Shown here in pieces: positions 25,423 to 44,912 of a DNA stretch of 64,000 bases. The number at the start of each line of letters is the position of its first letter. The first letter of the stretch is position 1. The stretch lies in NCBI GenBank assembly GCA_048882325.1, contig JBHLRS010000005.1:69843-133842 (forward strand). Direction: 5' to 3'. The DNA comes from Candidatus Thorarchaeota archaeon (GTDB lineage: Archaea > Asgardarchaeota > Thorarchaeia > Thorarchaeales > Thorarchaeaceae). A model generated the notes under the pieces. That model did not search any database and was not told the DNA's origin. It saw only the letters and a program-made list of their open reading frames with translations. A program made the position numbers and the translations under genes.

Positions 25423-25509
25423 TGTATCGATAACATATATCTGAGACTCCGTTATCGCCACAGATAACAACAGATAGATTTCTGAATCAATAAGGAAGTA
25501 AGTTCACTA

Positions 25510-28227: not shown

Positions 28228-29130
28228 CTATCCCCAATCACTGATTCGCTCGATGCCAGACTCACCAAGTTCACAGACCAATTTGAGCTCAGCAAGAATT
28301 CCTGACCATCCGATGTCATATCCAACAACAGCCTCAGGGGTCTTGAAGCCATGATGGTGCAGTGTCACAAGTGTGTGTTCATTGACCTCCTCAAACCGCA
28401 CATTGACTAATGTTTCGGGTTCATCGCCATGCACCCAAGAGAATTCAAGCTCTTGATCTTGCATCATCTTCTTGAAGACAATTGGCCCCTTGCCTTCAGC
28501 CCACCATGTATAGATACCTGCATATTGTCTATCAACCACTGGATCATCGGCTCGGATGAAGTGCTTCAGTTTCTCAGGATTTGTCCAAACATCAAATGGT
28601 AATGATGGGGGCGTTTTACAAACCACACTTAATCGAACATCAACAGGGTCGTAGCGAGTGATTCGAAGGGGGTGATAGTTCGAATAATCAAAGCGAATTG
28701 CAGGTGCTCCGAGTTCTACAGCAGCCTTGAAATTTGCCAGAAGGAGGTTCCAATGTTCTGGTAAGTGGTAGTCTCGAGCAGAAACAGGAACTGCGCCATG
28801 ATTAACCTGAATCATTGTTCCAGGGCCAATCGGATTGAAACGAATGACGAGTAGAGTGTCAACACCCATTATTCTCCAACTGAGGAGCAGTACTTTCTTT
28901 TCCTTCACTTCTTTGATATCCCAATAGTTTGCCAGCTCAGGAGTCGTTGGGGCATTAGGGCCGAGGAACCTAATAGTACCACCCACGCGAACATCTGCAC
29001 TAATTTCGTCACCTAGCCACTGAAGCATGATGATGGGATCCAGAAATTTCGCCCAGACCTCCTCAAGTGGTCTGGAAACACGAATCCGCAGATGAATGAC
29101 AGGGAGGACCTCTTCTTTCTGCTCCGCCAC
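28228..29130 (-). CDS. Tandem SRPBCC (AHSA1/START-like) domain protein
   Basis: Two repeats: PLEEVWAKFLDP...QWLG...LSWR...HW...NFKAAVE and PFDVWTNPEKLKHF...FSW...GW...ELKLVCE. Confidence 0.82.
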   Translation of the reverse strand: MAEQKEEVLPVIHLRIRVSRPLEEVWAKFLDPIIMLQWLGDEISADVRVGGTIRFLGPNAPTTPELANYWDIKEVKEKKVLLLSWRIMGVDTLLVIRFNPIGPGTMIQVNHGAVPVSARDYHLPEHWNLLLANFKAAVELGAPAIRFDYSNYHPLRITRYDPVDVRLSVVCKTPPSLPFDVWTNPEKLKHFIRADDPVVDRQYAGIYTWWAEGKGPIVFKKMMQDQELEFSWVHGDEPETLVNVRFEEVNEHTLVTLHHHGFKTPEAVVGYDIGWSGILAELKLVCELGESGIERISDWG

Positions 29131-29234
29131 TTTCCTCTACCTCATTCCTCGTTCTTTTTTCCTGTTGTCACCAAGCCTTAAGTTTCTGATGGTATTCGAT
29201 TTTTCATTGGTAATATCAATTCAGAGTTTGTGCA

Positions 29235-29663
29235 TCAATCAAACTTCATTAGAGTTACAAGAGCCTCTCCATCCAAGATGATTTTACCTTCCTGATTTGT
29301 GCAAGTTGTGCTCAGAGTTACGCGCTCTTTTTCATCATTCAGTCCAACTACTTCTACTCGAGCTGTGATTGTATCTCCAATCTTCACGGGACCCAGAAAG
29401 CGCATGCTCTGGCTCATATAGATAGTACCAGGTCCTGGAAGATGCATACCTATCGCTGTACTCACAAAAGAAGCTGTTAGAATTCCATGAGCTATTCGAC
29501 CTCCAAACATAGTCGTTTTCGCCCAGGCCTCATCAAAGTGCAATGGATTGTAATCTCCACTGAGGTTTCCGAAGACTTGAATGTCCTCTTCAGTGACCTT
29601 GTGTTTGACCTCTGCAGATTGACCCATCTTGATATCTGTATACTTTGTTACTTCCATCTTCAT
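29235..29663 (-). CDS. MaoC-family (R)-specific enoyl-CoA hydratase (PhaJ-like)
   Basis: SGDYNPLHFD hydratase motif, RIAHG, LPGPG, FLGPVKIGDT; ATG overlaps the upstream TGA (TGATG). Confidence 0.9.
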   Translation of the reverse strand: MKMEVTKYTDIKMGQSAEVKHKVTEEDIQVFGNLSGDYNPLHFDEAWAKTTMFGGRIAHGILTASFVSTAIGMHLPGPGTIYMSQSMRFLGPVKIGDTITARVEVVGLNDEKERVTLSTTCTNQEGKIILDGEALVTLMKFD

Positions 29664-30691
29664 CACTTCTCCGTTCCCCATTTGATTGTCATGGCATTCC
29701 AAGACCACCCTATTCCAGCGGCTGTGAGAACAACTATGTCTCCATCTTTAATCTTGCCGCTCTTGAGACCTTCTTCTAGAGATACGATTGAGTCATTCTG
29801 ACCCATGTGACCCCATTCTGTGAAATATGTAGACTGTTCATAGGGATCAATACCAAGCTCATTGGCAACATATTCGAATGCGCTTCGTTTCATCCGAATG
29901 AGTCCGAGATAATCAATGTCTTTTCGCTCATAGCCACTACGTTTGAGAGATTGATCCACAACAGCTAGAAAATTCTTCATCGATAATTTGTCCAACCTTT
30001 CTTTAAGACCTTCGGGATCAGTCACGTCGAGATATGTCAGTCCCTTATCGATTGCGTCACAAGTGATAGGCATTACTGTTCCGCCAGCAGGAACATACAC
30101 GTCCTCAGAGAACTGCCCATCTGAAATCACACTTCCCTCCAACACGACATTTCTATCATAGTTTGCACGAAGTATCATTGCAACACCACTAGCAGCCAAG
30201 TCGTGCATGAATCGAGTTCGTATGTTACTGTAGTCAATAAGGTCTGAGTTCCGATAGCCACTTCCAATAATGATACGTTCATAACCATGAGCCTGCATCA
30301 GTGCTTTCGCCAGAATCATTGCGACCACAATAGTTCCGCATCTTTGATTTACGTCGAACGCCCAGGCGTTCGTAGCTCCAATCTCACCTTGAAACTTGAT
30401 TGCATAAGTCTGCATTGGATGTTCAGCATAGACCTCACCCGCCCAGATTACAACATCAATATCCTTTGCAGGATCCAACCCAGCTCTTTCGATGGCAATC
30501 TTCGCCGCCTTGACTCCCATAGCAACCGTGTGATCATCCTTTCCAGGCACAGACTTACTGTGTAGACCCATTTTTGTCTTGAGAATCTCAACAGGAGTTC
30601 CGGATTTGCTTGATATGTATTCAGCAGTGTGGCGTTCCTTTGGTATGTAGGTTCCGATGGATTCGATTCCAATAGATTTGACTTTGAGCAT
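29663..30691 (-). CDS. KS III/FabH-like thiolase-fold enzyme (GHxGxxD type)
   Basis: IGTYIP, AWAFDVNQRCGT (catalytic Cys), LIRMKRSA, WGHMGQND, IKDGDIVVLTAAGIG. Confidence 0.85.
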   Translation of the reverse strand: MLKVKSIGIESIGTYIPKERHTAEYISSKSGTPVEILKTKMGLHSKSVPGKDDHTVAMGVKAAKIAIERAGLDPAKDIDVVIWAGEVYAEHPMQTYAIKFQGEIGATNAWAFDVNQRCGTIVVAMILAKALMQAHGYERIIIGSGYRNSDLIDYSNIRTRFMHDLAASGVAMILRANYDRNVVLEGSVISDGQFSEDVYVPAGGTVMPITCDAIDKGLTYLDVTDPEGLKERLDKLSMKNFLAVVDQSLKRSGYERKDIDYLGLIRMKRSAFEYVANELGIDPYEQSTYFTEWGHMGQNDSIVSLEEGLKSGKIKDGDIVVLTAAGIGWSWNAMTIKWGTEK

Positions 30692-32232
30692 CAGTCATCA
30701 CCATTCTCAACAAGTTCACGTTTCAGAATTTTCCCAGCAGCACTTTTCGGAAGTTCATCCCTAAATTCGTAGTGCTTCGGGATTTTGTATCTTGCCAATT
30801 TTCCATCCAAATACGTGAGAACATCATCCTCTGTTAGAGCAGTATCTGGTTTGAGTACGACGAATGCTTTTCCGACCTCACCCCACTTTTCGCTTGGTAC
30901 ACCAACGACAGCAGCCTCAAGGATTGCAGGATGTTTGAAGAGTAACTCCTCAATCTCTGTGGGATAGACATTCTCTCCTCCTGAGATGAACATGTCTTTC
31001 TTCCTTCCAGTGATGAAGAAGAAACCTTCCTCGTCTTTCATTGCAAGGTCGCCGGTGTGAACCCATCCATTAGGTTCGATTATCTTAGCTGTTTCTTCGG
31101 GTTCTTCCCAGTAACCAGAGAAAATATGAGGACCCCTCAATAGTAACTCACCAACCTGACCGACCCCGACTTCTTTGTTATCATTGTCAACTATCTTCAT
31201 ATCGCAATGGAAAACTGGAAAACCAACTGAGGACGGTTTTCGTTTGACGTCAATTTCAGGTAGGTAGAAATTATTGGGACCGACCTCTGTAAGACCATAA
31301 CCCATCTTGAGAATTTTGCCACGTTTCCAATATTTCTCCATAATAGCAACAGGACATGGAGCACCTCCACTGATGAATAGCCTGACACTGTCGAAGCTGA
31401 TTTTCTCGAAGCTCTTTGACTCGGCCATCATGTTGAACATAGTGGGAACACCAACGACAAGGGTACACTTCTCTTCCATTATGACTCGAAGAGTTTCGTC
31501 AATGTTAAAATCACCCATTATAATGGATTTCGCACCTAGATGTATAAACGGGATGAGGAGGACATTTATGCCGCCAGTATGAAAAAGGGGAAAGAGAAGT
31601 GGCTGGATATCATCGGGTTTCAAGCCCCACGAAACTATCGTATTAACCGAATTCCAAAAGACAAGACCGTGGGATAAGACCGCACCTTTGGGAAGTCCAG
31701 TTGTACCCCCTGTAAATACGATTAGATAGGGATCATCCAGTGTGAGGTGTGGTCGTTCTACTTCACTAGACGGTTTGCGTTTCATGAGAGAGCTGAGATC
31801 AGAGTCAGAATCCAATTTCTTGTTTCCCATGACGACAACCTGCTTTCCTTTCAGATGGGGTCGAAGCTCATCAAATACTGTCTTGAGCGCTGGGTCGTAA
31901 AACAATATAGACGGATTCGTCTTCTTCAAGAGGTATTCAATTTCAACAGCTGTGAGACGAACATTAAAGGGAGTCATAATAGCTCCAATCTTGCCACAGG
32001 CAAACAGGAGGTCCAGGAAGTCAAACCTGTTCTTGGAGTAAACACCTACACGATCTCCTTTCTCTACTCCAGAATCAAGCAATAGTCTAGCTACTTGATT
32101 CGCTCGCGAATCAATCTCTCCAAAGGTGTACCTTACCTTCTGGATGTTGTCAACTATTGCTTCCAGCTTCGGGGTCAACAAAGCTCTTCTTCCTGTCCAA
32201 TCGCCAATCCATGACCAATCTTTCGGATACAT
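30691..32232 (-). CDS. Acyl-CoA synthetase (AMP-forming, MenE/long-chain fatty acid-like)
   Basis: FTGGTTGLPKGA, PLFH, GYGLTE, HTGDL, GRKKDMFISGGENVYP, ARYKIPK, PKSAAGKILK. Confidence 0.93.
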   Translation of the reverse strand: MYPKDWSWIGDWTGRRALLTPKLEAIVDNIQKVRYTFGEIDSRANQVARLLLDSGVEKGDRVGVYSKNRFDFLDLLFACGKIGAIMTPFNVRLTAVEIEYLLKKTNPSILFYDPALKTVFDELRPHLKGKQVVVMGNKKLDSDSDLSSLMKRKPSSEVERPHLTLDDPYLIVFTGGTTGLPKGAVLSHGLVFWNSVNTIVSWGLKPDDIQPLLFPLFHTGGINVLLIPFIHLGAKSIIMGDFNIDETLRVIMEEKCTLVVGVPTMFNMMAESKSFEKISFDSVRLFISGGAPCPVAIMEKYWKRGKILKMGYGLTEVGPNNFYLPEIDVKRKPSSVGFPVFHCDMKIVDNDNKEVGVGQVGELLLRGPHIFSGYWEEPEETAKIIEPNGWVHTGDLAMKDEEGFFFITGRKKDMFISGGENVYPTEIEELLFKHPAILEAAVVGVPSEKWGEVGKAFVVLKPDTALTEDDVLTYLDGKLARYKIPKHYEFRDELPKSAAGKILKRELVENGDD

Positions 32233-32360
32233 TCCGAGGACTCCTGTTGTTTCAGTGATAGTGACTTGTACCTAATTTAATCCAAAAGATATATTATTCG
32301 CCCAAAGTGAGTTTAGTGGGGAAACCCGATTTTGGATGGACTGAGAAGAGGGAAGTCGAA

Positions 32361-33155
32361 TTGACCTCAGAAAACGACTATATCCTAAGCACTAGTGGGT
32401 TGACCAAGAATTTTGGTGGGTTAATCGCAGTCAATGATGTAAGTCTTGACTTCGAAAGAGGTTCGATAAAAGCCATAATAGGTCCGAATGGGTCAGGAAA
32501 AACGACCTTCTTCAATCTGATAACTGGAGTCTTTCCGCCTTCATCGGGTAAGATTCTCTTTGAGGGCCAAAACATTACTCGAGCATCGATGCATAAACGT
32601 ACTCGACTGGGCATCTCGAGGTCATATCAGATCACGAATATCTTCCCATATCAGACAACGTTTGAGAATATTCGGTTGGCTGTTCAGGGATGCAGTGGTG
32701 CAAGAGTAAACTTCCTGGGAATGCTTAGAAAAGCTGGATCGTATACAGAATTTCATGACAAAGTCTTAGAGATTGTTTCAATTGTTGGACTTGATCCTAC
32801 TAGGCTCTACATTCCGGCTGCTTTGATACCTCATGCTGAACAAAGGAAACTAGAAATCGCGATGGCTCTCGCTACAGAACCAAGACTCCTTTTACTTGAT
32901 GAACCTGCTGCAGGAATGGCGATTGAAGAGATACCTGAAGTCATTGATGCTATACTTCGTGTCAAAAAATCATATGGTGATCGACTCACACTCCTTGTGG
33001 TCGAACACAAGATGGACATTGTTATGAACCTCAGCGAGGAAATCATTGTCCTTTCTCAAGGAAGAATGATAGCAAAAGGGCCTCCCAAAGAAATCAGAGA
33101 AAACGAACAAGTCCTTACAGCTTATCTTGGTGGTACAGATGAAACACTTGCTTGA
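32361..33155 (+). CDS. LIV-type ABC importer ATPase (LivG-like)
   Basis: FGGLIAVNDV, GPNGSGKTT, LLLDEPAAG, VEHKM, AYLG. Confidence 0.9.
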   Translation: MTSENDYILSTSGLTKNFGGLIAVNDVSLDFERGSIKAIIGPNGSGKTTFFNLITGVFPPSSGKILFEGQNITRASMHKRTRLGISRSYQITNIFPYQTTFENIRLAVQGCSGARVNFLGMLRKAGSYTEFHDKVLEIVSIVGLDPTRLYIPAALIPHAEQRKLEIAMALATEPRLLLLDEPAAGMAIEEIPEVIDAILRVKKSYGDRLTLLVVEHKMDIVMNLSEEIIVLSQGRMIAKGPPKEIRENEQVLTAYLGGTDETLA

Positions 33156-33858
33156 AGTTCAAGATGCTCATGTATACATAGGTTCCTTCTACGTCCTACA
33201 AGGAATCTCACTAGTCGTTCCTAAAGGAGAAGTCACACTCTTACTAGGAAGGAATGGAGCAGGAAAAACAACTACGATGAAATCAGTACTTGGAATTTAT
33301 CCACCAAGAAACGGGAATGTAGTCTTCAAAGGTGAGGAGATTTCAAATCTACCCACTCATAAGATAGTCAACAAAGGCATTGGTTACGTTCCAGATACAA
33401 GAAGGATATTTGGAACATTGACAGTTGAGCAAAATCTGATTGTATCTCGTAGAAAGGGAACATCAAAAGAGAAGATGCAAGAAAGAATGGAGTTGATTTT
33501 CGATCTATTCCCAGATATGAGGGGGTTTCTGAAACAGAGAGCAGGAACACTGTCTGGCGGACAACAGCAAATGCTGGCAGTCGCTCGTGCATTGGTGAAT
33601 GAGAATGACTTGTTGCTTATTGATGAGCCAACTGAAGGCCTAAGTCCACTCCTTGCCAAGAATCTGATCGCATCCCTTGACAGATTGAAAGAATATGCCA
33701 CTATATTACTAGTAGAACAGAACTTCCGAGCTGTTTCCAGGCTGGGTGATAATTACTACATCTTCGATAATGGAAAAATCGTTCACGAAGGGAATAACAT
33801 GTCTGAACTGATTGCAGATAAAGAACTCGTTGCGCAATACTTGGGGGTGAGAATCTAA
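33139..33858 (+). CDS. LIV-type ABC importer ATPase (LivF-like)
   Basis: GRNGAGKTT, AGTLSGGQQQML, DEPTEGLSP, LVEQN, YLG. Confidence 0.9.
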   Translation: MKHLLEVQDAHVYIGSFYVLQGISLVVPKGEVTLLLGRNGAGKTTTMKSVLGIYPPRNGNVVFKGEEISNLPTHKIVNKGIGYVPDTRRIFGTLTVEQNLIVSRRKGTSKEKMQERMELIFDLFPDMRGFLKQRAGTLSGGQQQMLAVARALVNENDLLLIDEPTEGLSPLLAKNLIASLDRLKEYATILLVEQNFRAVSRLGDNYYIFDNGKIVHEGNNMSELIADKELVAQYLGVRI

Positions 33859-33859
33859 C

Positions 33860-34954
33860 ATGATGGATTCACAGGAAACTACTCAATCGCAATCTCGAGG
33901 ATTATTGAGAACACTTGTACTAATTGATGTTATCATTGCAATAGGATGTATCTTAGCTGTTGTTGCTATTAACGTCTATTCATGGAATGGATTCATTGTT
34001 GGGCTGAGTAAATCTATTGTGAATGGCCTTGCTCTCAGCATGTTGCTCTTCCTGATGGTGTCAGGATTCTACTTGATATTTGGGTTATGCGATGTCATCA
34101 ATTTCGCACACGGGTCCTTCTTCATGCTAGGTGGGTTCATGGGCTTTGTCATTTATCGAGGAACAGAGGCGGTTCTGCTTGATCAGGCTCTACCATTCTA
34201 TGCAATTTTTGGAGGCAGTCATTTTGCTATGTCCCTAATCTCGTTTATTGTTAGTGCTCTAGGGGCTACTGCGGTTATGGCAATTATCGGTGGTAGCATA
34301 GAGTTCTTCACAATTCGTCGACTCTATGGAAATGCAATTGCACAGATATTACTAACCGTTGGTTTTATGTTCATTATAACTCAGGCTGCTGAGATTATCT
34401 GGGGGCCTCCGCAATTTTCGTATTTCATTATACCCGGTTCTAGTTCCCAATTAGATACGTTCTTCATTAGTGGAACTCTTGTTTTTGGTGATATAATATT
34501 CAAAGCATACAACATCTTTCTGATCTTTCTCGGATTCGCAGTTGCTGGATTGATGTTTCTAGGCTTTAGAAAGACGCGAATTGGCCTGCAAATTCAAGCG
34601 GGTATAGAAGATTCAGAGATGGTCGAAGCACTTGGTACAAATATCAGACGATTGTTCACAGTTGTCTTCATGATAGGAGCTGGTCTTGCTGGACTATCAG
34701 GAGCAGTCCTTGTTCCGATGATTGGAGCAAATTCTGGTCACGGGCTCACATACCTCATTTACGCCTTTGTCATCGTTGTTATAGGGGGCGCTCATTATGG
34801 TCGATTCGAAGGAACCTTCTTCGGGGCACTTGTAGTAGGTCTTTCAATTCAGTTTTCGTCGTATTTCATCCCATTTCTTGAGGATATTATTGTGTTCATT
34901 ATTATGGTGGTCATTCTCATAATCAAGCCAGGAGGTCTGACAGGTCATGAGTAA
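33860..34954 (+). CDS. LIV-type ABC importer permease (LivH-like)
   Basis: GFYLIFG..VINFAHG, TRIG..IQA, MVEALG, FVIVVIGG, KPGGL. Confidence 0.9.
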   Translation: MMDSQETTQSQSRGLLRTLVLIDVIIAIGCILAVVAINVYSWNGFIVGLSKSIVNGLALSMLLFLMVSGFYLIFGLCDVINFAHGSFFMLGGFMGFVIYRGTEAVLLDQALPFYAIFGGSHFAMSLISFIVSALGATAVMAIIGGSIEFFTIRRLYGNAIAQILLTVGFMFIITQAAEIIWGPPQFSYFIIPGSSSQLDTFFISGTLVFGDIIFKAYNIFLIFLGFAVAGLMFLGFRKTRIGLQIQAGIEDSEMVEALGTNIRRLFTVVFMIGAGLAGLSGAVLVPMIGANSGHGLTYLIYAFVIVVIGGAHYGRFEGTFFGALVVGLSIQFSSYFIPFLEDIIVFIIMVVILIIKPGGLTGHE

Positions 34955-36695: not shown

Positions 36696-36699
36696 GGAT

Positions 36700-37518
36700 A
36701 TGCCATTCACGACAATACAAGACGTCGATTTGTACTATGAGATTCATGGACCACCTGATGCTCCGCCGCTGGTACTCATTGGAGGTTGGGCATCATATCG
36801 CTGGATCTGGTTCCGCCAGGTTCCCACGTTCAAGGAGAAATACAGGTGTATCGTCTTTGACAATCGCGGGGCAGGACAGAGTTCTAAACCGGACTACCCA
36901 TACACAATAGAGATGATGGCGGCCGACACAGTTGGGCTATTGGACACTTTACAAATTGAGAGTGCACATATATTGGGAATTTCGATGGGCGGATTGATTG
37001 CGCAACAAATAGCGCTATCATATCCTGAAATGGTTCGTAGCTTGATTCTTGTTGCAACGCACTTTGGAGGACCCAATCATATTCCGATACCAGATGACAT
37101 TGTGGCATTGCTAGTTGCTCTACCAACTGAAACTATCTCATATGAACAAGCCAGAAAGATGCGATACAATGCAACCTTCAGTACGGAATTCCTTGAGGAA
37201 AATGAGGAACTCATGAAGCAGATAGATGATTGGGTAGTAAAGCATCCTGCACCATTATTCGCGCAAGTGCATCAGAGCTCTGCCACAGCTGGATTTGATT
37301 CAGAATCAGAGTTGAAGAATATTACTGCACCCACTCTAATCTTGCATGGAAGCATAGATTTCACGATATTGCCCAAGAACTCAGAACTGATAGCAGAAAA
37401 GATACCTAATTCGAGAATACAATTCATCGAGGGTGCAGCACACTTTGTCATTGTCGAAAAATATCAGGAGTTCAATACTGCAGTTATGAATTTCATTGAT
37501 GAGATTGAGGGGAGATAA
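36700..37518 (+). CDS. Alpha/beta-fold hydrolase (enol-lactonase/esterase-like)
   Basis: FDNRGAG, GISMGG nucleophile elbow, HGSID, AAH. Confidence 0.9.
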   Translation: MPFTTIQDVDLYYEIHGPPDAPPLVLIGGWASYRWIWFRQVPTFKEKYRCIVFDNRGAGQSSKPDYPYTIEMMAADTVGLLDTLQIESAHILGISMGGLIAQQIALSYPEMVRSLILVATHFGGPNHIPIPDDIVALLVALPTETISYEQARKMRYNATFSTEFLEENEELMKQIDDWVVKHPAPLFAQVHQSSATAGFDSESELKNITAPTLILHGSIDFTILPKNSELIAEKIPNSRIQFIEGAAHFVIVEKYQEFNTAVMNFIDEIEGR

Positions 37519-37555
37519 CGAGTTCACTACGCCAAAGAGAGGTGAAATCAATAAG

Positions 37556-38566
37556 ATGGGGCGGTCTGCAGTCGTAACTGGGCTAGGAATCTATATTCCA
37601 GAGAAGATGTTGACAAATGAGGACATAGAGAAGATGCTCAACAGGCCTGGCACAGCTGACTGGTTAGTGAAGAACGTTGGTATAAGACAGCGGCACATTA
37701 TGGCGAAGGATGAGGTAACTTCCGACCTTGCAGTCCATGCTGGTCGGGAATCACTGGAGAATTCAGGAATCAATCCAAGAGACCTTGACCTAATCATAGT
37801 GAGTACAGACACTCCAGACTATCTCTCACCAGCAACTTCTGTTGTTGTTCAAGAAAAGCTTGGAGCCAAAAATGCAGGGACATTCGATGTAAACTGTGCC
37901 TGTGCAGGACTAGTCACATCTCTAGACATTGCCTCACGCTACATTCAGACTGATCCAAGTATTGAGTCAATCCTAGTGATTGGAGCCTATGGAATGACCA
38001 AGTTCGTTGATTGGACAGATCATTACACTTGTACCCTGTTTGCAGATGCAGCTGGTGCGATGACGCTACAAGCAAGTATTGAGAGAGAAGGATTCATCGC
38101 ATCAAAACTGATTGCTGATGGTTCATTCCACGACCACTTGGGAATCTTTGTAGGCGGAACCGCTGAGCCTCCTACCATAGAGGCAATCGAAAATAATAGA
38201 CATCATTTAGCATTTCGCAAAAGATTTCCTGCAGACACTAACCTGCAACACTGGCCTACATTGACGAGAGACTGTGTCGCAAAGGCAAATCTCACAATGG
38301 ATGACATTGATTTCATCTTCTTCACCCAAGTGAATCTACGTACGATTGAAGCAGTCATGAAAGAATTAAACATGCCACTTGAAAAAACCCACAATGTCAT
38401 GGACAAATGGGGATATACGGGTTCAGCTTGTATTGCTTTGGCGATGTATGACGCTATTAAGCTAGGAATACTTCCGCCACCTGGAAAGGGGAATGGTGAG
38501 AATATAGCCCTCTGCTCTTCTGGAGGTGGCTTCAATATGGCTGCAGCAATTCTCAAATGGTGGTAA
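37556..38566 (+). CDS. KS III/FabH-like thiolase-fold enzyme (TQ/GYTG type)
   Basis: GIRQRH, STDTPDY, DVNCACAG (Cys), LFADAAGA, FFTQVN, WGYTGSAC, SGGG. Confidence 0.87.
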   Translation: MGRSAVVTGLGIYIPEKMLTNEDIEKMLNRPGTADWLVKNVGIRQRHIMAKDEVTSDLAVHAGRESLENSGINPRDLDLIIVSTDTPDYLSPATSVVVQEKLGAKNAGTFDVNCACAGLVTSLDIASRYIQTDPSIESILVIGAYGMTKFVDWTDHYTCTLFADAAGAMTLQASIEREGFIASKLIADGSFHDHLGIFVGGTAEPPTIEAIENNRHHLAFRKRFPADTNLQHWPTLTRDCVAKANLTMDDIDFIFFTQVNLRTIEAVMKELNMPLEKTHNVMDKWGYTGSACIALAMYDAIKLGILPPPGKGNGENIALCSSGGGFNMAAAILKWW

Positions 38567-38622
38567 GGGATTTTTATTCTGGTTTTGGTAGTAGGAATAT
38601 GATTCCTGTTGAGGGGATTCAA

Positions 38623-40170
38623 ATGGCCAATCAGTTTGATTATCTATCCAAGAGAGATATATTCTCTCCAGAGGCTGAAGCTTTAGTCGATGTTGAAACG
38701 GGGAAGAGGTACTCATACAGAGCGTTTAACCAACGGGCGAATAAGGTCGCGAATTTTCTGCAGGAAACAGTTGAGTTTCAGAAGGGAGACCGACTCTCTA
38801 TTCTGGCTCGCAATAGCTTGGAGTACTGGGAAGCGTTTTTCGGATGTCAGAAGTGTGGAGGCATCTTTAGCCCTCTCAACTGGCGATTAGTGGCTCGAGA
38901 GTTGACTGGTTTGATAGACGACCTTTCTCCCTCTGTAATGTTTTATGATGCAGATATGGAAAACGTCGCCATCGAATTAAAGAAAGAAGTCGATGTTAAT
39001 CATTGGATCACACTGGATGTGAAGAGGTCAGAGTTGAAAGATTCATTGCTCTATGAAGAACTGATGAAAAAAGCGTCACCAACTCCTCCTCAACCAGTGT
39101 CTCTCGCTTATGAAGACCCGATGGGTATCGTATTCACAGGCGGTACAACTGGACTTCCGAAAGGAGCTATGATAACATACCGACAGGTTGCTTTCAACAC
39201 TCTGAGCACAATACGAGACGCTCTTCCAGGTGATGTCTATATCAATCATTTACCGCTCTTTCATGTTGGTGGATTGTATGTCTATGCTATACCACTCTTC
39301 ATTCTGGGAGGAAAAGTAATCCAAATGAAGCGATGGAATCTCGATGAGGTTGTGAACGTTATTAACCGAGAGAAACCCAATTTCTTCTTCGCTGTTCCAA
39401 CACAATATCGGATGTTGATGAATCACCCTGAATTCAAGTCGATTGACTTCAGCAGTGTCCGGTTCTTGACATCTGGGGGTGAACCTCTACCCTTGGACAT
39501 CATCAAGACTTTCCAATCGGTTCATAGTGTAAAATTCAAACAAGGATTCGGAATGACTGAAGTCGGACCAGGCTGTTTTGCTCTCGACCCGTGGGATGCT
39601 GAACGGAAGATTGGAAGTATTGGTACTCCTAACTTCTTCATTGATGCTAAAGTGATTAATCCAGAAACCGGTAAGGACTGTGCTGCAAATGAGGTAGGTG
39701 AGCTCGTGTTCAAAGGACCGACAGTAACAATCGGATATTGGAATAGACCAGAATTGAATAAGGAACTCCTTGATGAGGATGGATGGTTCAGGACTGGGGA
39801 CATGGTGTACTTTGATGATGAGGGATACTACTATGTGGTCGATCGAGTCAAGGACATGTTCATCTCAGGAGGAGAAAATGTCTATCCTAGAGAGATTGAG
39901 AAACTTCTAGAAGAGCATCCAAAGATAGCCCAAGTGCAGGTAATCGGTGTGCCAGATCGTAAGTGGGGAGAGGTGGGGCGCGCAATCGTTGTTTTGAAGG
40001 AAGGAGAGTCAGCCTCGGAGGAAGAAATACTCGATTATTGTGATGGAAAGTTGGCTAGTTTCAAGATTCCAAAATCAGTACGATTTACCGAGAGTTTCAC
40101 ACGATACATTTCTGGAGCTGGAAAAATCCTGAAACGGAAATTACGAGAAGATTTTGCACAGGAGAACTGA
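38623..40170 (+). CDS. Acyl-CoA synthetase (AMP-forming)
   Basis: FTGGTTGLPKGA, PLFHVGG, GFGMTE, FRTGD, DRVKDMFISGGENVYP, GKILK. Confidence 0.93.
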   Translation: MANQFDYLSKRDIFSPEAEALVDVETGKRYSYRAFNQRANKVANFLQETVEFQKGDRLSILARNSLEYWEAFFGCQKCGGIFSPLNWRLVARELTGLIDDLSPSVMFYDADMENVAIELKKEVDVNHWITLDVKRSELKDSLLYEELMKKASPTPPQPVSLAYEDPMGIVFTGGTTGLPKGAMITYRQVAFNTLSTIRDALPGDVYINHLPLFHVGGLYVYAIPLFILGGKVIQMKRWNLDEVVNVINREKPNFFFAVPTQYRMLMNHPEFKSIDFSSVRFLTSGGEPLPLDIIKTFQSVHSVKFKQGFGMTEVGPGCFALDPWDAERKIGSIGTPNFFIDAKVINPETGKDCAANEVGELVFKGPTVTIGYWNRPELNKELLDEDGWFRTGDMVYFDDEGYYYVVDRVKDMFISGGENVYPREIEKLLEEHPKIAQVQVIGVPDRKWGEVGRAIVVLKEGESASEEEILDYCDGKLASFKIPKSVRFTESFTRYISGAGKILKRKLREDFAQEN

Positions 40171-40970
40171 TGACGATGCCAATCAGCAATGTGAATGGTG
40201 TGGACATATACTATGAAATTCACGGCAATGGGGAACCAGTCATCTTCGGTAATGGTGTCTTCTCCAACACTTTGGGGTGGATAAATCAGACTCCCGTGTT
40301 CTCCAAGGAGTATCAAATAATTCTCTATGATATGCGCGGTCAGGGTCAGAGTGAGAAACCAGATAGTCCATACTCATTCGAAATCCACGCTGAAGATCAA
40401 AGGGCACTTCTTGAATCCCTTGGAATCTCTAAGGTTCATCATGTTGGGATAAGCTATGGAGGAGAGCTAGGTCTCGTGTTTGCATTGAAATATCCTGAGC
40501 TGCTGAAGAGCTTAGTTGTTTGCAGTGCTGTTTCATATGTGGGACCACTACTTCGAGAGATGTGTCTATTGTGGAGATATGCATGTGAACAGGAAATTCC
40601 TGACCTGTTCTATCACTCAACTGTTCCATTAAATTTCGGAGAGACCTTTATCAAAGAAAGTGCAGCCATTCTTGAACAAGCCAAAGCTCGATATTCCGGA
40701 CTCGACTATCCGCCGCTTGTGAGGTTAATTGATGCATTTCTTATGCTTGATGTTACAGATGAACTCTCCAAAATCGAAATCCCAACCTGTGTCATCGCAG
40801 GGGATAAAGACATTCTGAAACCAGTAGATCCCTACTCAAAATTAATACATGATTCTTTGCCAAATTCAGAAATGACAGTCATTCCTGATTCTGGCCATGC
40901 TGTTACCTTCGAAAAACCAAAAGAGTTCAACAAGGTGGTTCTGGATTTCTTGCAAAGTCAAACCAAATGA
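40170..40970 (+). CDS. Alpha/beta-fold hydrolase
   Basis: YDMRGQG, GISYGG, GDKD, SGH; start overlaps ligase stop. Confidence 0.9.
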   Translation: MTMPISNVNGVDIYYEIHGNGEPVIFGNGVFSNTLGWINQTPVFSKEYQIILYDMRGQGQSEKPDSPYSFEIHAEDQRALLESLGISKVHHVGISYGGELGLVFALKYPELLKSLVVCSAVSYVGPLLREMCLLWRYACEQEIPDLFYHSTVPLNFGETFIKESAAILEQAKARYSGLDYPPLVRLIDAFLMLDVTDELSKIEIPTCVIAGDKDILKPVDPYSKLIHDSLPNSEMTVIPDSGHAVTFEKPKEFNKVVLDFLQSQTK

Positions 40971-41042
40971 ACTAGTTACTAATTGTAATTTTTCTGATTT
41001 CCTTAAGAGATATATAGCTCGGAACCCTCCAACTATGGATAG

Positions 41043-41060
41043 ACATAGAACGGTCTATGT
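41043..41060. promoter_or_regulatory. Palindrome upstream of the binding-protein gene, putative operator
   Basis: ACATAGA-acgg-TCTATGT about 40 bp before the ATG and downstream of a TATA-like GATATATAG near 41009. Confidence 0.35.
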
Positions 41061-41101
41061 TCGACTCTAACAGTAATGATACTGTTAATGGAGGATAGAA
41101 G

Positions 41102-42598
41102 ATGAATAAAATGAGAATGATATCTCTATCACTATCGTTGCTACTGGTAGCATCCATCTTCGTACCTTGTTTCTTTGTTAAACCGGCTGTTGCACAACCC
41201 CAACCAATAAAGATTGGAGTGTTCACACCGGAAACAGCTGGTCTGACAGCATATGGACCATGGACAAAACAAGGCTTCGAGTTGGGTATGGTTTATGCAA
41301 CAACGATGATGGGATATGATAATGAGAATATGACTGAAGCAGGTCGACCCTATGAAATTCATTATTATGATACTCAGGGTGATGTAACTTATGCAGCGAC
41401 TCAAGCAGTAGAAGCAATCGAAACCGATGGAATTGATATTCTTGTAGGAGGAACTTCCAGCGCGGTTGCTGCAGCAATTTCACCAATCGCTGAAGAATAT
41501 GAAAAGTTGTATTTCATAACACCAGCCGCTGCAGCTTCACTAACTGCTGCAGACTTTAATCCATACATCTTCCGTATTGCAAGAAACAACTGGCATGATG
41601 CTTATGCAGGCGTCACATATGCTATGGACTATCTCAACTATACTAAGTTCGCCTTCCTTGCAGCGGATTATTCATTTGGATACGATGGCGTTTCGTCAAT
41701 GACCGAGGTGATTGAGCAGAAAGGAGGAGTCGTGATCAGTTCTGTATATGCAAATCTCTTTGATACCGATTTCTCACAAGAAATTGATGCCCTCAAGGCT
41801 GCAGATCTCGTGAACGATATTGAGTACCTGTTCATTATATGGGCCCTTGACTTCTCGTATCTTTACAATGATATGACAACATACAACCTTGCTGCTGACA
41901 TGGAGATTGCTGGAGCTTGTATCGATATCCTTTCAATGAACGCAATTGAGGCGAGTCTAACACCTCCTGCTACTTACATAGGTTCCACAGGTCTCTGTCT
42001 ATATGGTTATGAACTACCCAACAATACGGTAAATGACTGGATGGTAGCGCAGCATGTAGCCAGAAACATCATGCCAAATGGTCAATATTTCCTCACCTAT
42101 AGAGTTCCAGAGCTGTTTACTGCGAGTGCATTTGCCACAGCGCAATTCTTGGTAGACGTTACCAATGCAGTTGCGGATCTTGATACAAACATGATGATTA
42201 ACTACCTGGAAAGTGGAATCACCATAAATGCGCCGAAAGGACCGACGTATCTAAGACCGGATGATCATCAAGGGCTTGCTGAGATGTATATCGCAACAGC
42301 TGTGAATGACACACGTTCCGGATCTGAAACTGAGAATCTAGTCATCGCCGAACTTGTTGAAACCCTTGACCGTGATACGGTTGCTCCACCAGTTGCATCT
42401 GTATGGAATGGAGAACCATACGTGCCTGGTGGTTTCGCACCAATGACAACCTCGACTACCACAACAACATCAACTACTACTCCAGGATCCACCACACCTC
42501 CACCAGGTGGATTCGACCTTTTGACAGTCGGGCTAATAGGAATAGCTGGATTAGCAGTGGGTGTAATTGTAGCTGCAGTAGTCTTTCGTAAGAAGTAG
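41102..42598 (+). CDS. LivK-type ABC substrate-binding protein, C-terminally membrane anchored
   Basis: Signal peptide, PIKIGV, YDTQG, LVGGTSSAVA, ADYSFG, APKG..LRPDDHQ; Thr-rich linker, TM, RKK. Confidence 0.9.
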   Translation: MNKMRMISLSLSLLLVASIFVPCFFVKPAVAQPQPIKIGVFTPETAGLTAYGPWTKQGFELGMVYATTMMGYDNENMTEAGRPYEIHYYDTQGDVTYAATQAVEAIETDGIDILVGGTSSAVAAAISPIAEEYEKLYFITPAAAASLTAADFNPYIFRIARNNWHDAYAGVTYAMDYLNYTKFAFLAADYSFGYDGVSSMTEVIEQKGGVVISSVYANLFDTDFSQEIDALKAADLVNDIEYLFIIWALDFSYLYNDMTTYNLAADMEIAGACIDILSMNAIEASLTPPATYIGSTGLCLYGYELPNNTVNDWMVAQHVARNIMPNGQYFLTYRVPELFTASAFATAQFLVDVTNAVADLDTNMMINYLESGITINAPKGPTYLRPDDHQGLAEMYIATAVNDTRSGSETENLVIAELVETLDRDTVAPPVASVWNGEPYVPGGFAPMTTSTTTTTSTTTPGSTTPPPGGFDLLTVGLIGIAGLAVGVIVAAVVFRKK

Positions 42599-42631
42599 GG
42601 TTCATTCGAACCCTCTCTTTTTCTTTTTTTT
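42597..42631 (+). terminator. Hairpin plus T-tract terminator
   Basis: AGGGTTC-attc-GAACCCT followed by a CTC and long T-rich run right at the stop codon. Confidence 0.75.
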
Positions 42632-42764
42632 AATGTTCAAATAGTAGCCTTAAGATTCAAAGCTGAATCCAAGAGAATATCTTGATGACAAGTATAATAT
42701 CTGTGAAATTACCCTAACTAGAAGACTTTGTGAAGTCTATCGTAGAGTGGAGATTGGAGCAGAA

Positions 42765-44093: not shown

Positions 44094-44205
44094 AATTGCT
44101 AACTCTTGATATTTTCCAATAATCATATATGGATTAGCGAAATTAACAAAATCAATGTAGACTTTACTCAGTTAAGTTTGCGAAAGGATTTACAGGTGCA
44201 ATTCA

Positions 44206-44700
44206 ATGGGAGACGACAATGGATTTCTCAAAGGACCGATAACACGTCTCTTTGAGAAAGTGGCTAAATGGATAGGCCTCTCCACCAATGCGGGACCGGT
44301 ATTGGCTGCACTCTTCATGGAAAGTTACGAAACCGGTAAGCGGATGAGCTCCGATGATATCTGCAAGGCGACAGGATATTCACGAGCAAATGCTGGACTG
44401 ATTATCTCACAACTAGAAGCATTAGGTGTAATTGAAGGACAACGGGATTATGATCAAACAGGTAGGGGAAGAAAGAGAGTCCTTTACTCTGTTAATGGTG
44501 ACTTTGGAGACATATTCAATCTTGGAGTCATGAGTCTTCTAGACAGACTCGGAGCAATGATGAAAGACATACAGTCGATTGAGGACCTCAGACATGGAAG
44601 TGAAGATGCACTACAACCGATGCTGAAGGACATTAAGAAAGTAATTCAAGCAAGAGTCGACTCGCTTGAAACTGTTTCATCTGCGGAAATATCGTTCTGA
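44206..44700 (+). CDS. GbsR/MarR-family winged-helix regulator
   Basis: GL..NAG.VLAALF, MSSDDICKATGYSRANAGLIISQLEALGVI, GRKRVLY wing. Confidence 0.78.
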   Translation: MGDDNGFLKGPITRLFEKVAKWIGLSTNAGPVLAALFMESYETGKRMSSDDICKATGYSRANAGLIISQLEALGVIEGQRDYDQTGRGRKRVLYSVNGDFGDIFNLGVMSLLDRLGAMMKDIQSIEDLRHGSEDALQPMLKDIKKVIQARVDSLETVSSAEISF

Positions 44701-44912
44701 TATAGGATGGTTGCTAACGCTTAATGCATTCGCAGTAATACGAGAAGATTCCCGATCTGGTTTGATATAGATACTACTCAATGAACAACATGGGTTCCTT
44801 CTAAAGCTTATTCAGTAACAAGAAGGCTGATTGGAATTCGCGGATAACAAACACACAAGATAGTAATATACAAAGTTTAGCGTTTCTATTCGAGAGACCT
44901 CTCCAGTCGGAG

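What the first reader, a model, noticed from the sequence alone, without database searches (positions are those of the whole stretch)
28228..42631. Two-armed, ACP-free KS III / CoA-ligase / hydrolase cluster with its own importer
Seen: a divergent promoter (32233-32360) drives arm A (CoA ligase, KS III-like, MaoC, tandem SRPBCC; first three overlap by 1 bp) and arm B (LivGFHM, hydrolase, KS III-like, CoA ligase, hydrolase, binding protein, terminator). No ACP, reductase, acyl-CoA dehydrogenase or classical thiolase is present. Established: ligase plus paired FabH-like enzymes plus hydrolase is the logic of Pqs quinolone and Ole olefin/beta-lactone pathways, and SRPBCC di-domains act as polyketide cyclases or lipid binders. 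Inference: an uncharacterised pathway that either builds an acyl ester or signal molecule from imported acids, or imports and dismantles hydroxy-acid esters such as PHA oligomers (the importer and PhaJ-like hydratase favour this). I recall similar unassigned clusters in bacteria, so transfer is plausible. Best candidate in the window for an undescribed metabolic system.
Basis: partly seen in the sequence, partly recalled or inferred. Interest (0 to 1): 0.75.

Follow-up and report, generated by a model that had tools for sequence, protein, structure and literature searches.

The report
Asgard acid-uptake operon, odd FabH-like enzymes
An Asgard (Thorarchaeota) archaeon carries a real gene cluster, borrowed from bacteria, that most likely imports a small organic acid or its ester and processes it as CoA thioesters with two unstudied FabH-like enzyme families; the substrate is unknown.

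Summary
All 13 genes are at the stated places. Minor corrections: MaoC is 29235-29663 and KS-B starts at 37556. The window is a Thorarchaeota MAG with no ACP domain found.

The cluster is not Pqs- or Ole-like biosynthesis. It is the archaeal copy of a widespread bacterial catabolic module. In about 120 loci the constant logic is a transporter, CoA activation, a KS III-fold enzyme, usually a serine esterase, and an (R)-specific hydratase or a FabG/PhaB-like reductase.
- The transporter is a Liv/Urt-type ABC importer, an SSF symporter, or a new 400-aa membrane protein.
- CoA activation is by an AMP-forming ligase or a butyryl-CoA:acetate-type CoA-transferase.
- Bacterial copies sit under sigma54 or TetR regulators, beside crt-bcd-etfBA-hbd-thl or a classical thiolase.

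Both KS families keep the Cys but not the FabH triad.
- KS-A (NF005308) is Cys/His/His, with Arg in place of the first His fixed in the Thor clade.
- KS-B is Cys/Thr/Tyr with a nearly invariant second Cys.

The two arms are separable modules that are repeatedly joined. Archaeal KS-A forms one clade nested among bacterial sequences.

The best reading is uptake and CoA-level breakdown of a short hydroxy- or oxo-acid or its ester. The chemistry of the KS enzymes is unproven. This scan had already flagged the same cluster in other Thor genomes.

The parts
28228..29130 (-). Tandem AHSA1/SRPBCC protein (300 aa), a Thor-specific accessory at the end of arm A
   Evidence: Pfam AHSA1, 2 stretches, 1.9e-26. 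Weak PDB hits to CalU16 and AHSA1-like proteins. Found beside the KS-A genes only in Thor-type loci.
29235..29663 (-). MaoC/PhaJ-type (R)-specific enoyl-CoA hydratase (142 aa)
   Evidence: Pfam MaoC_dehydratas 7.7e-28. Closest solved structures are the (R)-specific enoyl-CoA hydratases 5cpg (8e-35) and 1iq6 (2e-28). The ATG overlaps the KS-A stop by 1 bp.
29663..30691 (-). KS-A: KS III-fold enzyme of family NF005308/PRK06840, with Cys118, Arg266 (His in most of the family), His295, Lys268 and Asp300
   Evidence: NF005308 scores 415 bits against a cut-off of 315. Alignment to FabH structures. Family motifs. AF2 model pLDDT 93.6; best fold match is FabH, TM 0.83-0.87 at 18-24% identity.
30691..32232 (-). 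LigA: AMP-forming acyl-CoA ligase (513 aa), translationally coupled to KS-A
   Evidence: Pfam AMP-binding plus AMP-binding_C. All core motifs are present, including the A10 Lys. Best PDB hit is 8wev/8weu, feruloyl-/fatty-acyl-CoA synthetase, 5e-100. Best NCBIfam hit is PRK06839, below its cut-off.
32233..32306 (.). 74-bp AT-rich divergent spacer with TATA-like boxes on both strands
   Evidence: Read directly. Function as a promoter is inferred.
32307..33858 (+). Two ABC ATPases (LivG-like 32307-33155, LivF-like 33127-33858)
   Evidence: Pfam ABC_tran and BCA_ABC_TP_C.
33860..36695 (+). Two permeases (LivH-like 33860-34954; LivM/UrtC-like 34947-36695, with a long N-terminal membrane extension)
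   Evidence: Pfam BPD_transp_2. The second permease scores higher with UrtC (1.6e-30) than with LivM (1.5e-15).
36700..37518 (+). HydB1: serine alpha/beta hydrolase (GISMG, Asp, His), carboxylesterase-like
   Evidence: Pfam Abhydrolase_1 9.3e-33. Best PDB hits are 6eb3 (Est1) and 8v16 at about 1e-44; 8v16 is Ade1, a metagenomic soil esterase (PMC13498779). Best NCBIfam hit is PcaD enol-lactonase, 1.1e-41, below its cut-off. Sequence.
37556..38566 (+). KS-B: second KS III-fold family (336 aa) with Cys136, Thr277 in place of the FabH His, Tyr307 in place of the Asn, and a second Cys312 that is nearly invariant (numbering of the 356-aa ORF)
   Evidence: Alignment to FabH structures. Invariant columns across Thor, Heimdall, Bacillota and Spirochaetota; in the wider 16-sequence alignment Cys312 is nearly invariant. 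Start codon. AF2 pLDDT 91.2; FabH fold, TM 0.88, 28-33% identity.
38557..40170 (+). LigB: second AMP-forming acyl-CoA ligase (537 aa), 40% identical to LigA
   Evidence: Pfam. Motifs and identity.
40170..40970 (+). HydB2: second serine alpha/beta hydrolase (GISYG), 32% identical to HydB1
   Evidence: Pfam. NCBIfam hits to PcaD and RutD are below cut-off. Sequence; identity.
41102..42598 (+). Substrate-binding protein with a signal peptide, a Thr/Pro-rich linker and a C-terminal membrane anchor
   Evidence: Pfam Peripla_BP_6 2.2e-38. Best PDB hits are 3nnd/3n0x, unassigned ('possible') ABC substrate-binding proteins, about 1e-38; named Leu/Ile/Val binders score far weaker. Sequence.
42597..42623 (+). 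Hairpin followed by a T-run (terminator-like)
42747..47147 (+). Probable regulators: REC-GAF-PAS protein (42747-44093), small HTH-like protein (44206-44700) and a 4xPAS histidine kinase (44913-47147)
   Evidence: Pfam. Homologues of the kinase (41-50% identity) lie directly upstream of LigA in L027, L029, L031, L034, L035, L038 and L039. The link to the cluster is inferred from this recurrence.

Best explanation
This is a catabolic uptake-and-activation cluster, not a fatty-acid or signal synthase. A membrane-anchored binding protein and a Liv/Urt-type ABC importer bring in a small carboxylic acid, or an ester or lactone of one. Two serine esterases free the acid. Two AMP-forming ligases turn it into CoA thioesters. 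Two KS III-fold enzymes (KS-A, KS-B) take the acyl group onto their conserved cysteine. They then carry out a non-decarboxylative step on CoA thioesters, either thiolase-like C-C cleavage of a 3-oxoacyl-CoA or ester-to-thioester acyl transfer. The MaoC hydratase converts the resulting (R)-3-hydroxyacyl-CoA into enoyl-CoA, which the genome's ordinary beta-oxidation enzymes can use.

Shown:
- the gene content;
- the conservation and modular make-up of the cluster in Asgard archaea and bacteria;
- the interchange of ligase with CoA-transferase, of ABC importer with symporter or a new membrane protein, and of MaoC with a FabG/PhaB-like reductase;
- the altered but conserved KS active sites;
- no ACP domain found in the genome;
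- the bacterial origin of KS-A.

Inferred: the direction (catabolic), the size and class of the substrate (short hydroxy- or oxo-acid), and the reaction of the KS enzymes.
For: 1. A transporter is always part of the module.
- Liv-type ABC importer in Thor, Heimdall and 17-22 of 27 bacterial loci.
- SSF symporter in others.
- A Pfam-less 400-aa polytopic membrane protein directly upstream of LigA in 37 Asgard loci that lack the ABC genes.

2. The AMP-forming ligase is replaced by a butyryl-CoA:acetate-type CoA-transferase in 15 of 27 bacterial loci. This is typical of fermentative breakdown of free short acids.

3. Either an (R)-specific MaoC (9 loci) or a FabG/PhaB-like SDR (10 loci) accompanies the KS. 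One SDR scores over the FabG cut-off. These are the two known ways to connect (R)-3-hydroxyacyl-CoA to central metabolism.

4. Context in Bacillota:
- sigma54 activators, TetR or large BTAD/TPR regulators;
- L094 lies directly after crt-bcd-etfB-etfA-hbd-thl;
- KS-B-only operons read SDR, CoA-transferase, KS-B, classical thiolase, LivHMGF-SBP.

5. The hydrolases are canonical Ser-Asp-His enzymes closest to a carboxylesterase. In L091 an NHL/SGL (lactonase-like) beta-propeller occupies the hydrolase position.

6. The KS enzymes cannot be FabH. No PP-binding domain was found in the 93%-complete genome, and the His-Asn pair is replaced in both. The replacements are conserved, so they are functional:
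- KS-A: Cys in 73/73 archaeal rows, His295 in 73/73, Arg266 in exactly the 32-row Thor clade, and His266 in 41 archaeal and 49/56 bacterial rows.
- KS-B: Cys136, Thr277, Gln278, Asn280 and Tyr307 invariant and Cys312 nearly invariant from Thor to Bacillota and Spirochaetota.

7. The genome holds ACADs, HADHs and thiolases elsewhere to take the products.
Against: - No member of either KS family has been characterised. A catabolic role for a KS III-fold enzyme has no precedent that I could find.
- KS-A in most lineages has Cys-His-His, a triad that in FabB/FabF supports decarboxylative condensation, so a true condensing role is not excluded. The genome has one acyl-CoA carboxyltransferase.
- KS-B operons and L094 already contain a classical thiolase. 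A simple 'KS replaces thiolase' picture therefore does not explain why the KS is needed.
- Two AMP-forming ligases are costly for an energy-limited anaerobe.
- The Thor cluster itself has no dehydrogenase.
- Bacterial operons with KS, alpha/beta hydrolase, SDR and AMP-ligase match the OleABCD family set.
- Substrate identity rests only on context.
Confidence: 0.6

Rival explanations
1. A specific sub-case of the main reading: salvage of (R)-3-hydroxyalkanoates and their oligomers (PHB/PHA breakdown products). Oligomers and monomers are imported. Esterases and/or the KS cysteine cleave the ester bonds, with the KS passing the 3-hydroxyacyl group to CoA. Ligases activate the free monomers. MaoC (as PhaJ) gives crotonyl-CoA.
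For: - MaoC is closest to PhaJ structures.
- In bacteria it alternates with a PhaB/FabG-like SDR.
- The CoA-transferase is of the butyryl-CoA:acetate type.
- L094 adjoins crt-bcd-etf-hbd-thl.
- A lipase-class-2-like protein lies next to KS-A and the CoA-transferase in L094, L097 and L100.
- The hydrolases give weak hits to PHA depolymerase models.
- The genome has no PhaC or extracellular PHB depolymerase, so any such substrate would be scavenged from outside.
Against: - Hits to PHA depolymerase and oligomer-hydrolase models are far below cut-off and weaker than the hits to PcaD or generic esterases.
- The ligases are of the FadD/MenE/Fcs type, not the acetoacetyl- or short-chain type.
- No known 3HB route needs a KS III-fold enzyme.
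- The minimal Loki/Hod module lacks MaoC.
Confidence: 0.2
2. Biosynthetic reading: imported acids are activated and condensed head-to-head or with malonyl-CoA by the KS enzymes. The product is a beta-keto acid, beta-lactone, olefin, pyrone or acyl ester, trimmed by the hydrolases. This would be an Ole/Lst/Pqs-like pathway.
For: - Bacterial operons contain the same four families as OleABCD: KS III-like, alpha/beta hydrolase, AMP-ligase family and SDR.
- Two different KS III homologues side by side recall LstAB, NltAB and PqsBC.
- KS-A has a Cys-His-His triad in most lineages.
- The Thor cluster has an SRPBCC protein.
Against: - An SBP-dependent importer, symporter or other membrane protein is built into the operon in every lineage.
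- The ligase is exchangeable for an acetate/butyrate-type CoA-transferase.
- The regulators and neighbours are catabolic.
- KS-B lacks every residue that stabilises an enolate in known condensing enzymes.
- The sequences are nearer to FabH than to OleA, PqsC or PqsD, and the ligases are nearer to FadD/Fcs than to any beta-lactone synthetase in the PDB list.
- KS-A and KS-B each occur alone, so they are not an obligate heterodimer.
Confidence: 0.15
3. Side-chain shortening of plant-derived aromatic acids (cinnamate, coumarate, ferulate), or breakdown of polyketide-like 3,5-dioxo/3-hydroxy-5-oxo acids such as those from phloroglucinol. The steps would be ligase, (R)-hydratase or SDR, then KS acting as a beta-ketothiolase on aroylacetyl-CoA or triacetyl-CoA.
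For: - LigA's best solved relative is deposited as a feruloyl-CoA synthetase (5e-100).
- Weaker PDB hits of the binding protein include several unassigned 'putative ABC transporter substrate-binding component' entries; I recall these as R. palustris aromatic-acid binders, but no tool output names their organism or ligand.
- From my own recollection of Brune & Schink 1992 (cited as ref. 18 in PMC10470551; the text read does not give these steps), Pelobacter-type phloroglucinol breakdown uses a CoA-transferase and two thiolytic steps whose genes are unknown.
- Both hydrolases are most similar to enol-lactonase models.
Against: - The bacterial CoA-transferases are of the short-chain (butyryl-CoA:acetate) type.
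- The characterised phloroglucinol cluster uses other enzyme families, with no KS III.
- No phloroglucinol reductase, aromatic-ring or benzoyl-CoA genes are in the cluster.
- The MtrH-like neighbour is kept only in the two closest relatives.
Confidence: 0.1
4. ACP-independent, CoA-based fatty-acid elongation (KS plus a ketoreductase elsewhere plus MaoC dehydratase) that supplies acyl chains for lipids in an Asgard archaeon.
For: - No ACP domain was found in the genome.
- KS and an (R)-specific dehydratase are adjacent.
- One carboxyltransferase could make malonyl-CoA.
Against: - There is no reductase in the cluster.
- The cluster carries an importer and esterases.
- Distribution is patchy and accessory: arm B is missing in many Thor genomes, and only about 8% of sampled Bacillota species carry KS-A.
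- In bacteria that have normal FAS II, the same module sits in catabolic operons.
Confidence: 0.04

Closest known systems
FabH / KAS III (beta-ketoacyl-ACP synthase III) and its CoA-using relatives BioZ and PqsD
   Same: Same fold. The AF2 models match FabH at TM 0.83-0.89. Both Pfam halves, ACP_syn_III and ACP_syn_III_C, are present. The nucleophilic Cys is in the same place.
   Different: The His-Asn pair is replaced: KS-A has Arg or His plus His; KS-B has Thr plus Tyr, with a second Cys. No ACP domain was found in the genome. The genes sit in importer/CoA-transferase operons, not FAS II. Identity is only 18-24% (KS-A) and 28-33% (KS-B).
OleABCD olefin/beta-lactone pathway and LstABCD/NltABCD beta-lactone clusters
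   Same: The same four protein families (KS III-like thiolase, alpha/beta hydrolase, AMP-ligase superfamily, SDR) stand together in the bacterial versions. Some clusters have two KS III paralogues.
   Different: - The relation is family-level only. OleA structures score E about 1e-13 against KS-B, versus 1e-51 for FabH, and are not among the KS-A hits.
- The Thor cluster has MaoC instead of an SDR.
- An importer is built in.
- The ligase is swappable for a CoA-transferase.
E. coli ato system (AtoC sigma54 activator, AtoDA CoA-transferase, AtoE transporter, AtoB thiolase) for acetoacetate and short-chain acids (from general knowledge)
   Same: The operon logic in Bacillota is the same: sigma54 activator, CoA-transferase, a thiolase-superfamily enzyme and a transporter.
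   Different: The CoA-transferase family differs (AcetylCoA_hydro/Cat type). The thiolase-superfamily member is KS III-fold. The module also has esterases and an (R)-specific hydratase or reductase. In archaea an AMP-forming ligase is used and there is no sigma54.
Lower beta-ketoadipate pathway (PcaD enol-lactonase, PcaIJ CoA-transferase, PcaF thiolase) (from general knowledge)
   Same: The same order of chemistry is proposed here: ester or lactone hydrolysis, CoA activation of the acid, then cleavage by a thiolase-superfamily enzyme. PcaD is the best NCBIfam model for both hydrolases.
   Different: Scores are well below the PcaD cut-off (143 and 124 bits against 256). No other pca genes are present. 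The host is anaerobic.
Pqs alkylquinolone pathway (PqsA ligase, PqsD, PqsBC, PqsE)
   Same: A ligase plus more than one FabH-like protein; PqsC also lacks the Asn.
   Different: PqsC and PqsD are more distant than FabH. There is no metallo-beta-lactamase-type PqsE and no anthranilate ligase signature. KS-A and KS-B occur independently. An importer is present.

Membership tests
FabH / KAS III (EC 2.3.1.180) | Cys-His-Asn catalytic triad | tested here: not met
   HMMER alignments to FabH structures. KS-A has Cys, Ile265/Arg266 and His295. KS-B has Cys, Thr and Tyr.
FabH / KAS III (EC 2.3.1.180) | Acts with malonyl-ACP, so an ACP and FAS II partners must exist in the genome | tested here: not met
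   No PF00550 match in the 93%-complete genome, while 11 of 14 control genomes match.
FabH / KAS III (EC 2.3.1.180) | KAS III fold | tested here: met
   AF2 models have pLDDT 91-94. Foldseek TM is 0.83-0.89 to FabH structures.
NCBIfam NF005308 (PRK06840, named '3-oxoacyl-ACP synthase') | Score over the curated cut-off of 315 bits | tested here: met
   KS-A scores 415 bits. KS-B scores 186 bits and is not a member. The family name is not backed by any tested function that I could find.
OleABCD / beta-lactone synthetase clusters | OleA-type thiolase as nearest relative, plus an OleC-type beta-lactone synthetase and an OleD reductase in the cluster | tested here: not met
   OleA structures are far weaker hits than FabH and are absent from the KS-A hits. 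The ligases are nearest to FadD, Fcs, MenE and MatB. The Thor cluster has no SDR.
Pqs quinolone pathway | PqsD (Cys-His-Asn), a PqsBC heterodimer, the PqsE thioesterase and an anthranilate-CoA ligase | tested here: not met
   Neither KS has the canonical triad. The KS families occur separately. The hydrolases are alpha/beta fold. Anthranilate-CoA ligase is only a distant PDB hit.
LIV-I branched-chain amino-acid ABC importer | The binding protein binds Leu/Ile/Val | not testable with these tools
   Only indirect evidence. The binding protein's best solved relatives are unassigned ('possible') ABC substrate-binding proteins 3nnd/3n0x (about 1e-38); named Leu/Ile/Val binders score 1e-9 or weaker. 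The permease scores higher with UrtC than with LivM.
PhaJ-type (R)-specific enoyl-CoA hydratase | Single hot-dog MaoC domain closest to PhaJ | tested here: met
   MaoC_dehydratas 7.7e-28. PhaJ structures 5cpg (8e-35) and 1iq6 (2e-28) are the top hits. Stereochemistry and chain length were not tested.
Degradative/biosynthetic thiolase (Thiolase_N/C) | Thiolase Pfam domains and a Cys/His/Cys active site | tested here: not met
   KS-A and KS-B match the ACP_syn_III models, not Thiolase_N/C. KS-B does have a nearly invariant second Cys, but its position relative to the active site was not measured.

The most novel reading that the evidence does not exclude
KS III-fold enzymes have been recruited twice (KS-A, KS-B) as catabolic catalysts. 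They would run the condensing-enzyme reaction backwards (thiolysis of poly-beta-keto or 3-oxoacyl-CoA, a 'reverse polyketide' step), or convert ester bonds directly into CoA thioesters. Anaerobic bacteria and Asgard archaea could then harvest short hydroxy- or oxo-acid esters with less ATP. That would define two new enzyme activities in the thiolase superfamily and a new nutrient niche for Asgard archaea.
Probability: 0.25. Interest if true: 0.72.

Novelty: new variant of a known kind. Interest (0 to 1): 0.55.

Why it matters
Both KS III subfamilies are annotated everywhere as '3-oxoacyl-ACP synthase', yet one host has no detectable ACP and both have conserved, non-FabH active sites. KS-A alone is present in about 8% of sampled Bacillota species and in most Asgard lineages.

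If the catabolic reading is right, three things follow:
- it adds a new reaction type to the thiolase superfamily;
- it corrects a widespread annotation that could be misread as fatty-acid synthesis in Asgard archaea, a point that matters in the lipid-divide debate;
- it names a concrete, testable carbon source for uncultured Thorarchaeota.

Cultivable carriers (Psychrobacillus, Pallidibacillus) make it testable at the bench.

Tried and rejected
- Literature: searches for Asgard plus FabH, PRK06840, Thorarchaeota plus 3-oxoacyl, sigma54 regulons with 3-oxoacyl, and the PDB codes 3NND/3N0X and 8WEV/8WEU gave nothing on these families.
- Phloroglucinol/triacetate route: the characterised cluster uses PGR, a cyclase-family hydrolase, a dehydrogenase and a BKACE lyase, with no KS III. 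I kept it only as a low-odds rival.
- Obligate KS-A/KS-B heterodimer (PqsBC-like): rejected. KS-A stands alone in Loki, Hod, Hermod and Bacillaceae, and KS-B stands alone in Bacillota operons.
- 'KS simply replaces thiolase': weakened by classical thiolases in the same operons.
- Thiolase-like C-terminal Cys in KS-B (LCSSGGG): not conserved in the family.
- Linkage of the MtrH-like and arylsulfotransferase-like neighbours to the cluster: MtrH is kept only in the two closest relatives, and the arylsulfotransferase-like gene in none.
- Fold searches gave only FabH-type neighbours and no closer functional lead.
- Own PHA metabolism: no PhaC or PHB depolymerase in the genome.

Full report
**What is there**

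The window is contig C5 of a 3.6-Mb, 93%-complete MAG. Its KS III homologues are 80-90% identical to proteins of Candidatus Thorarchaeota, so this is an Asgard archaeon.

- On the minus strand: an AMP-forming ligase (LigA, 30691-32232), a KS III-like protein (KS-A, 29663-30691), a MaoC hydratase (29235-29663) and a double AHSA1/SRPBCC protein (28228-29130).
- The first three overlap by one base each.
- On the plus strand: LivG, LivF, LivH, a LivM/UrtC-like permease, an alpha/beta hydrolase (HydB1), a second KS III-like protein (KS-B), a second ligase (LigB), a second hydrolase (HydB2) and a substrate-binding protein. A hairpin and T-run follow at 42597-42623.
- KS-B most likely starts at ATG 37556, behind a GAGGTGA box. 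That gives 336 aa, as in nearly all homologues.
- The binding protein has a signal peptide, a Thr/Pro-rich linker and a C-terminal membrane anchor, the usual archaeal way of holding such proteins at the surface.

**The two KS III-fold enzymes**

Both fold confidently as FabH: pLDDT 94 and 91, TM 0.83-0.89, with no closer solved relative. Neither has the FabH triad.

KS-A passes the curated cut-off of NCBIfam NF005308/PRK06840 (415 against 315 bits). I compared 129 family members.
- The nucleophilic Cys is kept in 73/73 archaeal and 47/56 bacterial rows.
- The FabH Asn is always His (G-H-x-G-Q-x-D).
- The FabH His region reads L-H-M-K-R-S.
- The first His is Arg in exactly the 32 rows of the Thor clade, and His in the other 41 archaeal and 49/56 bacterial rows.

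KS-B is a second family, 23% identical to KS-A.
- Cys136, Thr277-Gln-x-Asn280 and Gly-Tyr307-Thr-Gly-Ser are invariant; Cys312 is invariant in the first set compared and nearly invariant in the wider one.
- This holds from Thor and Heimdall to Bacillota and Spirochaetota.

These are conserved alternative active sites, not decay. The genome has no PP-binding (ACP) domain, although 11 of 14 control genomes match. The name '3-oxoacyl-ACP synthase' therefore cannot be right here.

**Conservation and modularity**

Among 80 genome loci found with a KS-A profile, about 75 are Asgard. The exact two-arm layout of the window recurs in L012, L013, L017, L018, L024, L026, L028 and L030. A Heimdall LC_3 contig has both arms in another order.

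Loki, Hod and Hermod genomes and some Thor genomes have only LigA, KS-A and a hydrolase. In 37 such loci a Pfam-less polytopic membrane protein of about 400 aa lies next to them, in most of them directly upstream of LigA.

In bacteria, NF005308 is over its cut-off in 32 of 401 sampled Bacillota species and in none of 14 model organisms. In 27 bacterial loci the partners of KS-A are:

| Partner | Loci (of 27) |
|---|---|
| Liv-type ATPases | 22 |
| Permeases | 17-18 |
| Binding protein | 17 |
| alpha/beta hydrolase | 15 |
| Butyryl-CoA:acetate-type CoA-transferase | 15 |
| FabG/PhaB-like SDR | 10 |
| AMP-forming ligase | 9 |
| MaoC | 9 |
| sigma54 activators | 8 |
| TetR | 6 |

Other variants:
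- Some loci use an SSF symporter instead of the ABC system.
- One has an NHL/SGL beta-propeller in the hydrolase position.
- KS-A, CoA-transferase and KS-B stand in a row in L099 and L101-L103.
- KS-B also heads its own operon: regulator, SDR, CoA-transferase, KS-B, classical thiolase, LivHMGF-SBP (L113, L114, L116, L117, L119).
- L094 follows crt-bcd-etfB-etfA-hbd-thl directly.

So the two arms of the window are two related, separable modules that have been joined repeatedly.

**Origin**

I built a FastTree tree of 145 sequences, rooted on KS-B. All archaeal KS-A sequences form one clade (support 99), nested among bacterial branches. Two bacterial genomes (L078, L084) lie inside the Asgard clade, and Asgard KS-B is sister to a Bacillota/Spirochaetota group. 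This points to transfer from bacteria into Asgard archaea, then spread within them. FastTree support only; long bacterial branches make the exact donor unsure.

**What it most likely does**

The invariant logic is a transporter, CoA activation of a free acid, a KS III-fold enzyme and usually a serine esterase, with an (R)-specific hydratase or (R)-type ketoreductase.

- Exchange of an AMP-forming ligase for an acetate/butyrate-type CoA-transferase is a hallmark of fermentative breakdown. So are substrate-type regulators and neighbours of the crotonyl/acetoacetyl-CoA pathway. None of these is typical of biosynthesis.
- MaoC and PhaB/FabG-like SDRs are the two known links between (R)-3-hydroxyacyl-CoA and central metabolism (general knowledge). 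That they alternate here suggests such an intermediate.
- The hydrolases are ordinary Ser-Asp-His enzymes. The closest solved relative is a soil metagenome carboxylesterase.
- The genome supplies ACADs, HADHs and thiolases elsewhere.

I therefore read the cluster as uptake and CoA-level breakdown of a short hydroxy- or oxo-acid, or of its ester or lactone (confidence 0.6).

The step done by KS-A and KS-B is inferred only. A Cys-acyl enzyme could act in thiolase-like cleavage or in ester-to-thioester transfer. Classical thiolases in the same operons show that the KS is not a mere substitute, and this remains unexplained.

**Rivals**

- PHA/3-hydroxyalkanoate oligomer salvage is an attractive special case (0.2), but the model hits are weak. 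The genome has no PhaC or extracellular PHB depolymerase.
- Ole/Lst/Pqs-type biosynthesis (0.15) shares protein families but fails each membership test and does not explain the transporters and CoA-transferases.
- Aromatic-acid or triacetate breakdown (0.1) rests on LigA's similarity to a feruloyl-CoA synthetase and on my recollection that some weaker SBP relatives bind aromatic acids, which no tool output confirms. The known phloroglucinol cluster is built differently.
- CoA-based fatty-acid elongation (0.04) is contradicted by the accessory, catabolic context.

**Relation to earlier work of this scan**

The same cluster was flagged in several other Thor genomes, and two follow-ups reached a similar general verdict. 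New here:
- the Bacillota survey;
- the ligase/CoA-transferase and MaoC/SDR interchanges;
- the KS-B-only operons with a classical thiolase;
- the new membrane protein that replaces the ABC importer;
- the clade-fixed His-to-Arg change;
- the tree.

**Verdict**

This is a real, conserved, uncharacterised catabolic module with two novel KS III subfamilies. It is of moderate interest (0.55) and a new variant of known kinds of enzymes and operons.

Noticed in passing
L007:7232-8434 (also L004:14542-15717 and 35 further Asgard loci): A polytopic membrane protein of about 400 aa with no Pfam family lies next to the LigA/KS-A module, in most loci directly upstream of LigA, in Asgard lineages that lack the Liv-type importer. 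It is a candidate new transporter family. It is absent from this window.
   Followed up: partly
L113, L114, L116, L117, L119 (Bacillota genomes G286, G312, G388, G231, G199): KS-B-only operons read regulator, FabG/PhaB-like SDR, butyryl-CoA:acetate-type CoA-transferase, KS-B, classical thiolase, LivHMGF-SBP. The KS-B motifs CACA, FTQVN and GYTGSACI are intact.
   Followed up: partly
window 27488-28225 (+): A polytopic membrane protein with no Pfam hit carries a SWGDAAGEVFGRPFG motif, reminiscent of CdsA or dolichol/phytol-kinase enzymes. It is conserved next to the AHSA1x2 gene in Thor relatives (50-83% identity).
   Followed up: partly
window 24514-27084 (+): An MtrH-like methyltransferase (1.1e-67) is followed by an arylsulfotransferase-like protein (3.2e-20). 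This is an unusual pair for an archaeon and may relate to methoxylated or phenolic compounds. The MtrH neighbour is kept only in L012 and L013.
   Followed up: partly
window 44913-47147 (+) and 42747-44700 (+): Homologues of a 4xPAS histidine kinase sit directly upstream of LigA in seven other Thor loci. In this window a REC-GAF-PAS protein and a small HTH-like protein without a Pfam family precede it. Together they are a probable sensory system for the cluster.
   Followed up: partly
L078 and L084 (genomes G004, G003; 7.7-8.6 Mb 'bacterium' MAGs): Their KS-A genes nest inside the Asgard clade (53-55% identity to Thor). This suggests transfer back from archaea to bacteria. G003 has two copies.
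   Followed up: no
window 41102-42598 (+), C-terminal 60 residues: The binding protein ends in a Thr/Ser/Pro-rich linker, a PPGGF motif, one transmembrane helix and RKK. This resembles an archaeal surface anchor or a sorting signal of the PGF-CTERM kind.
   Followed up: no
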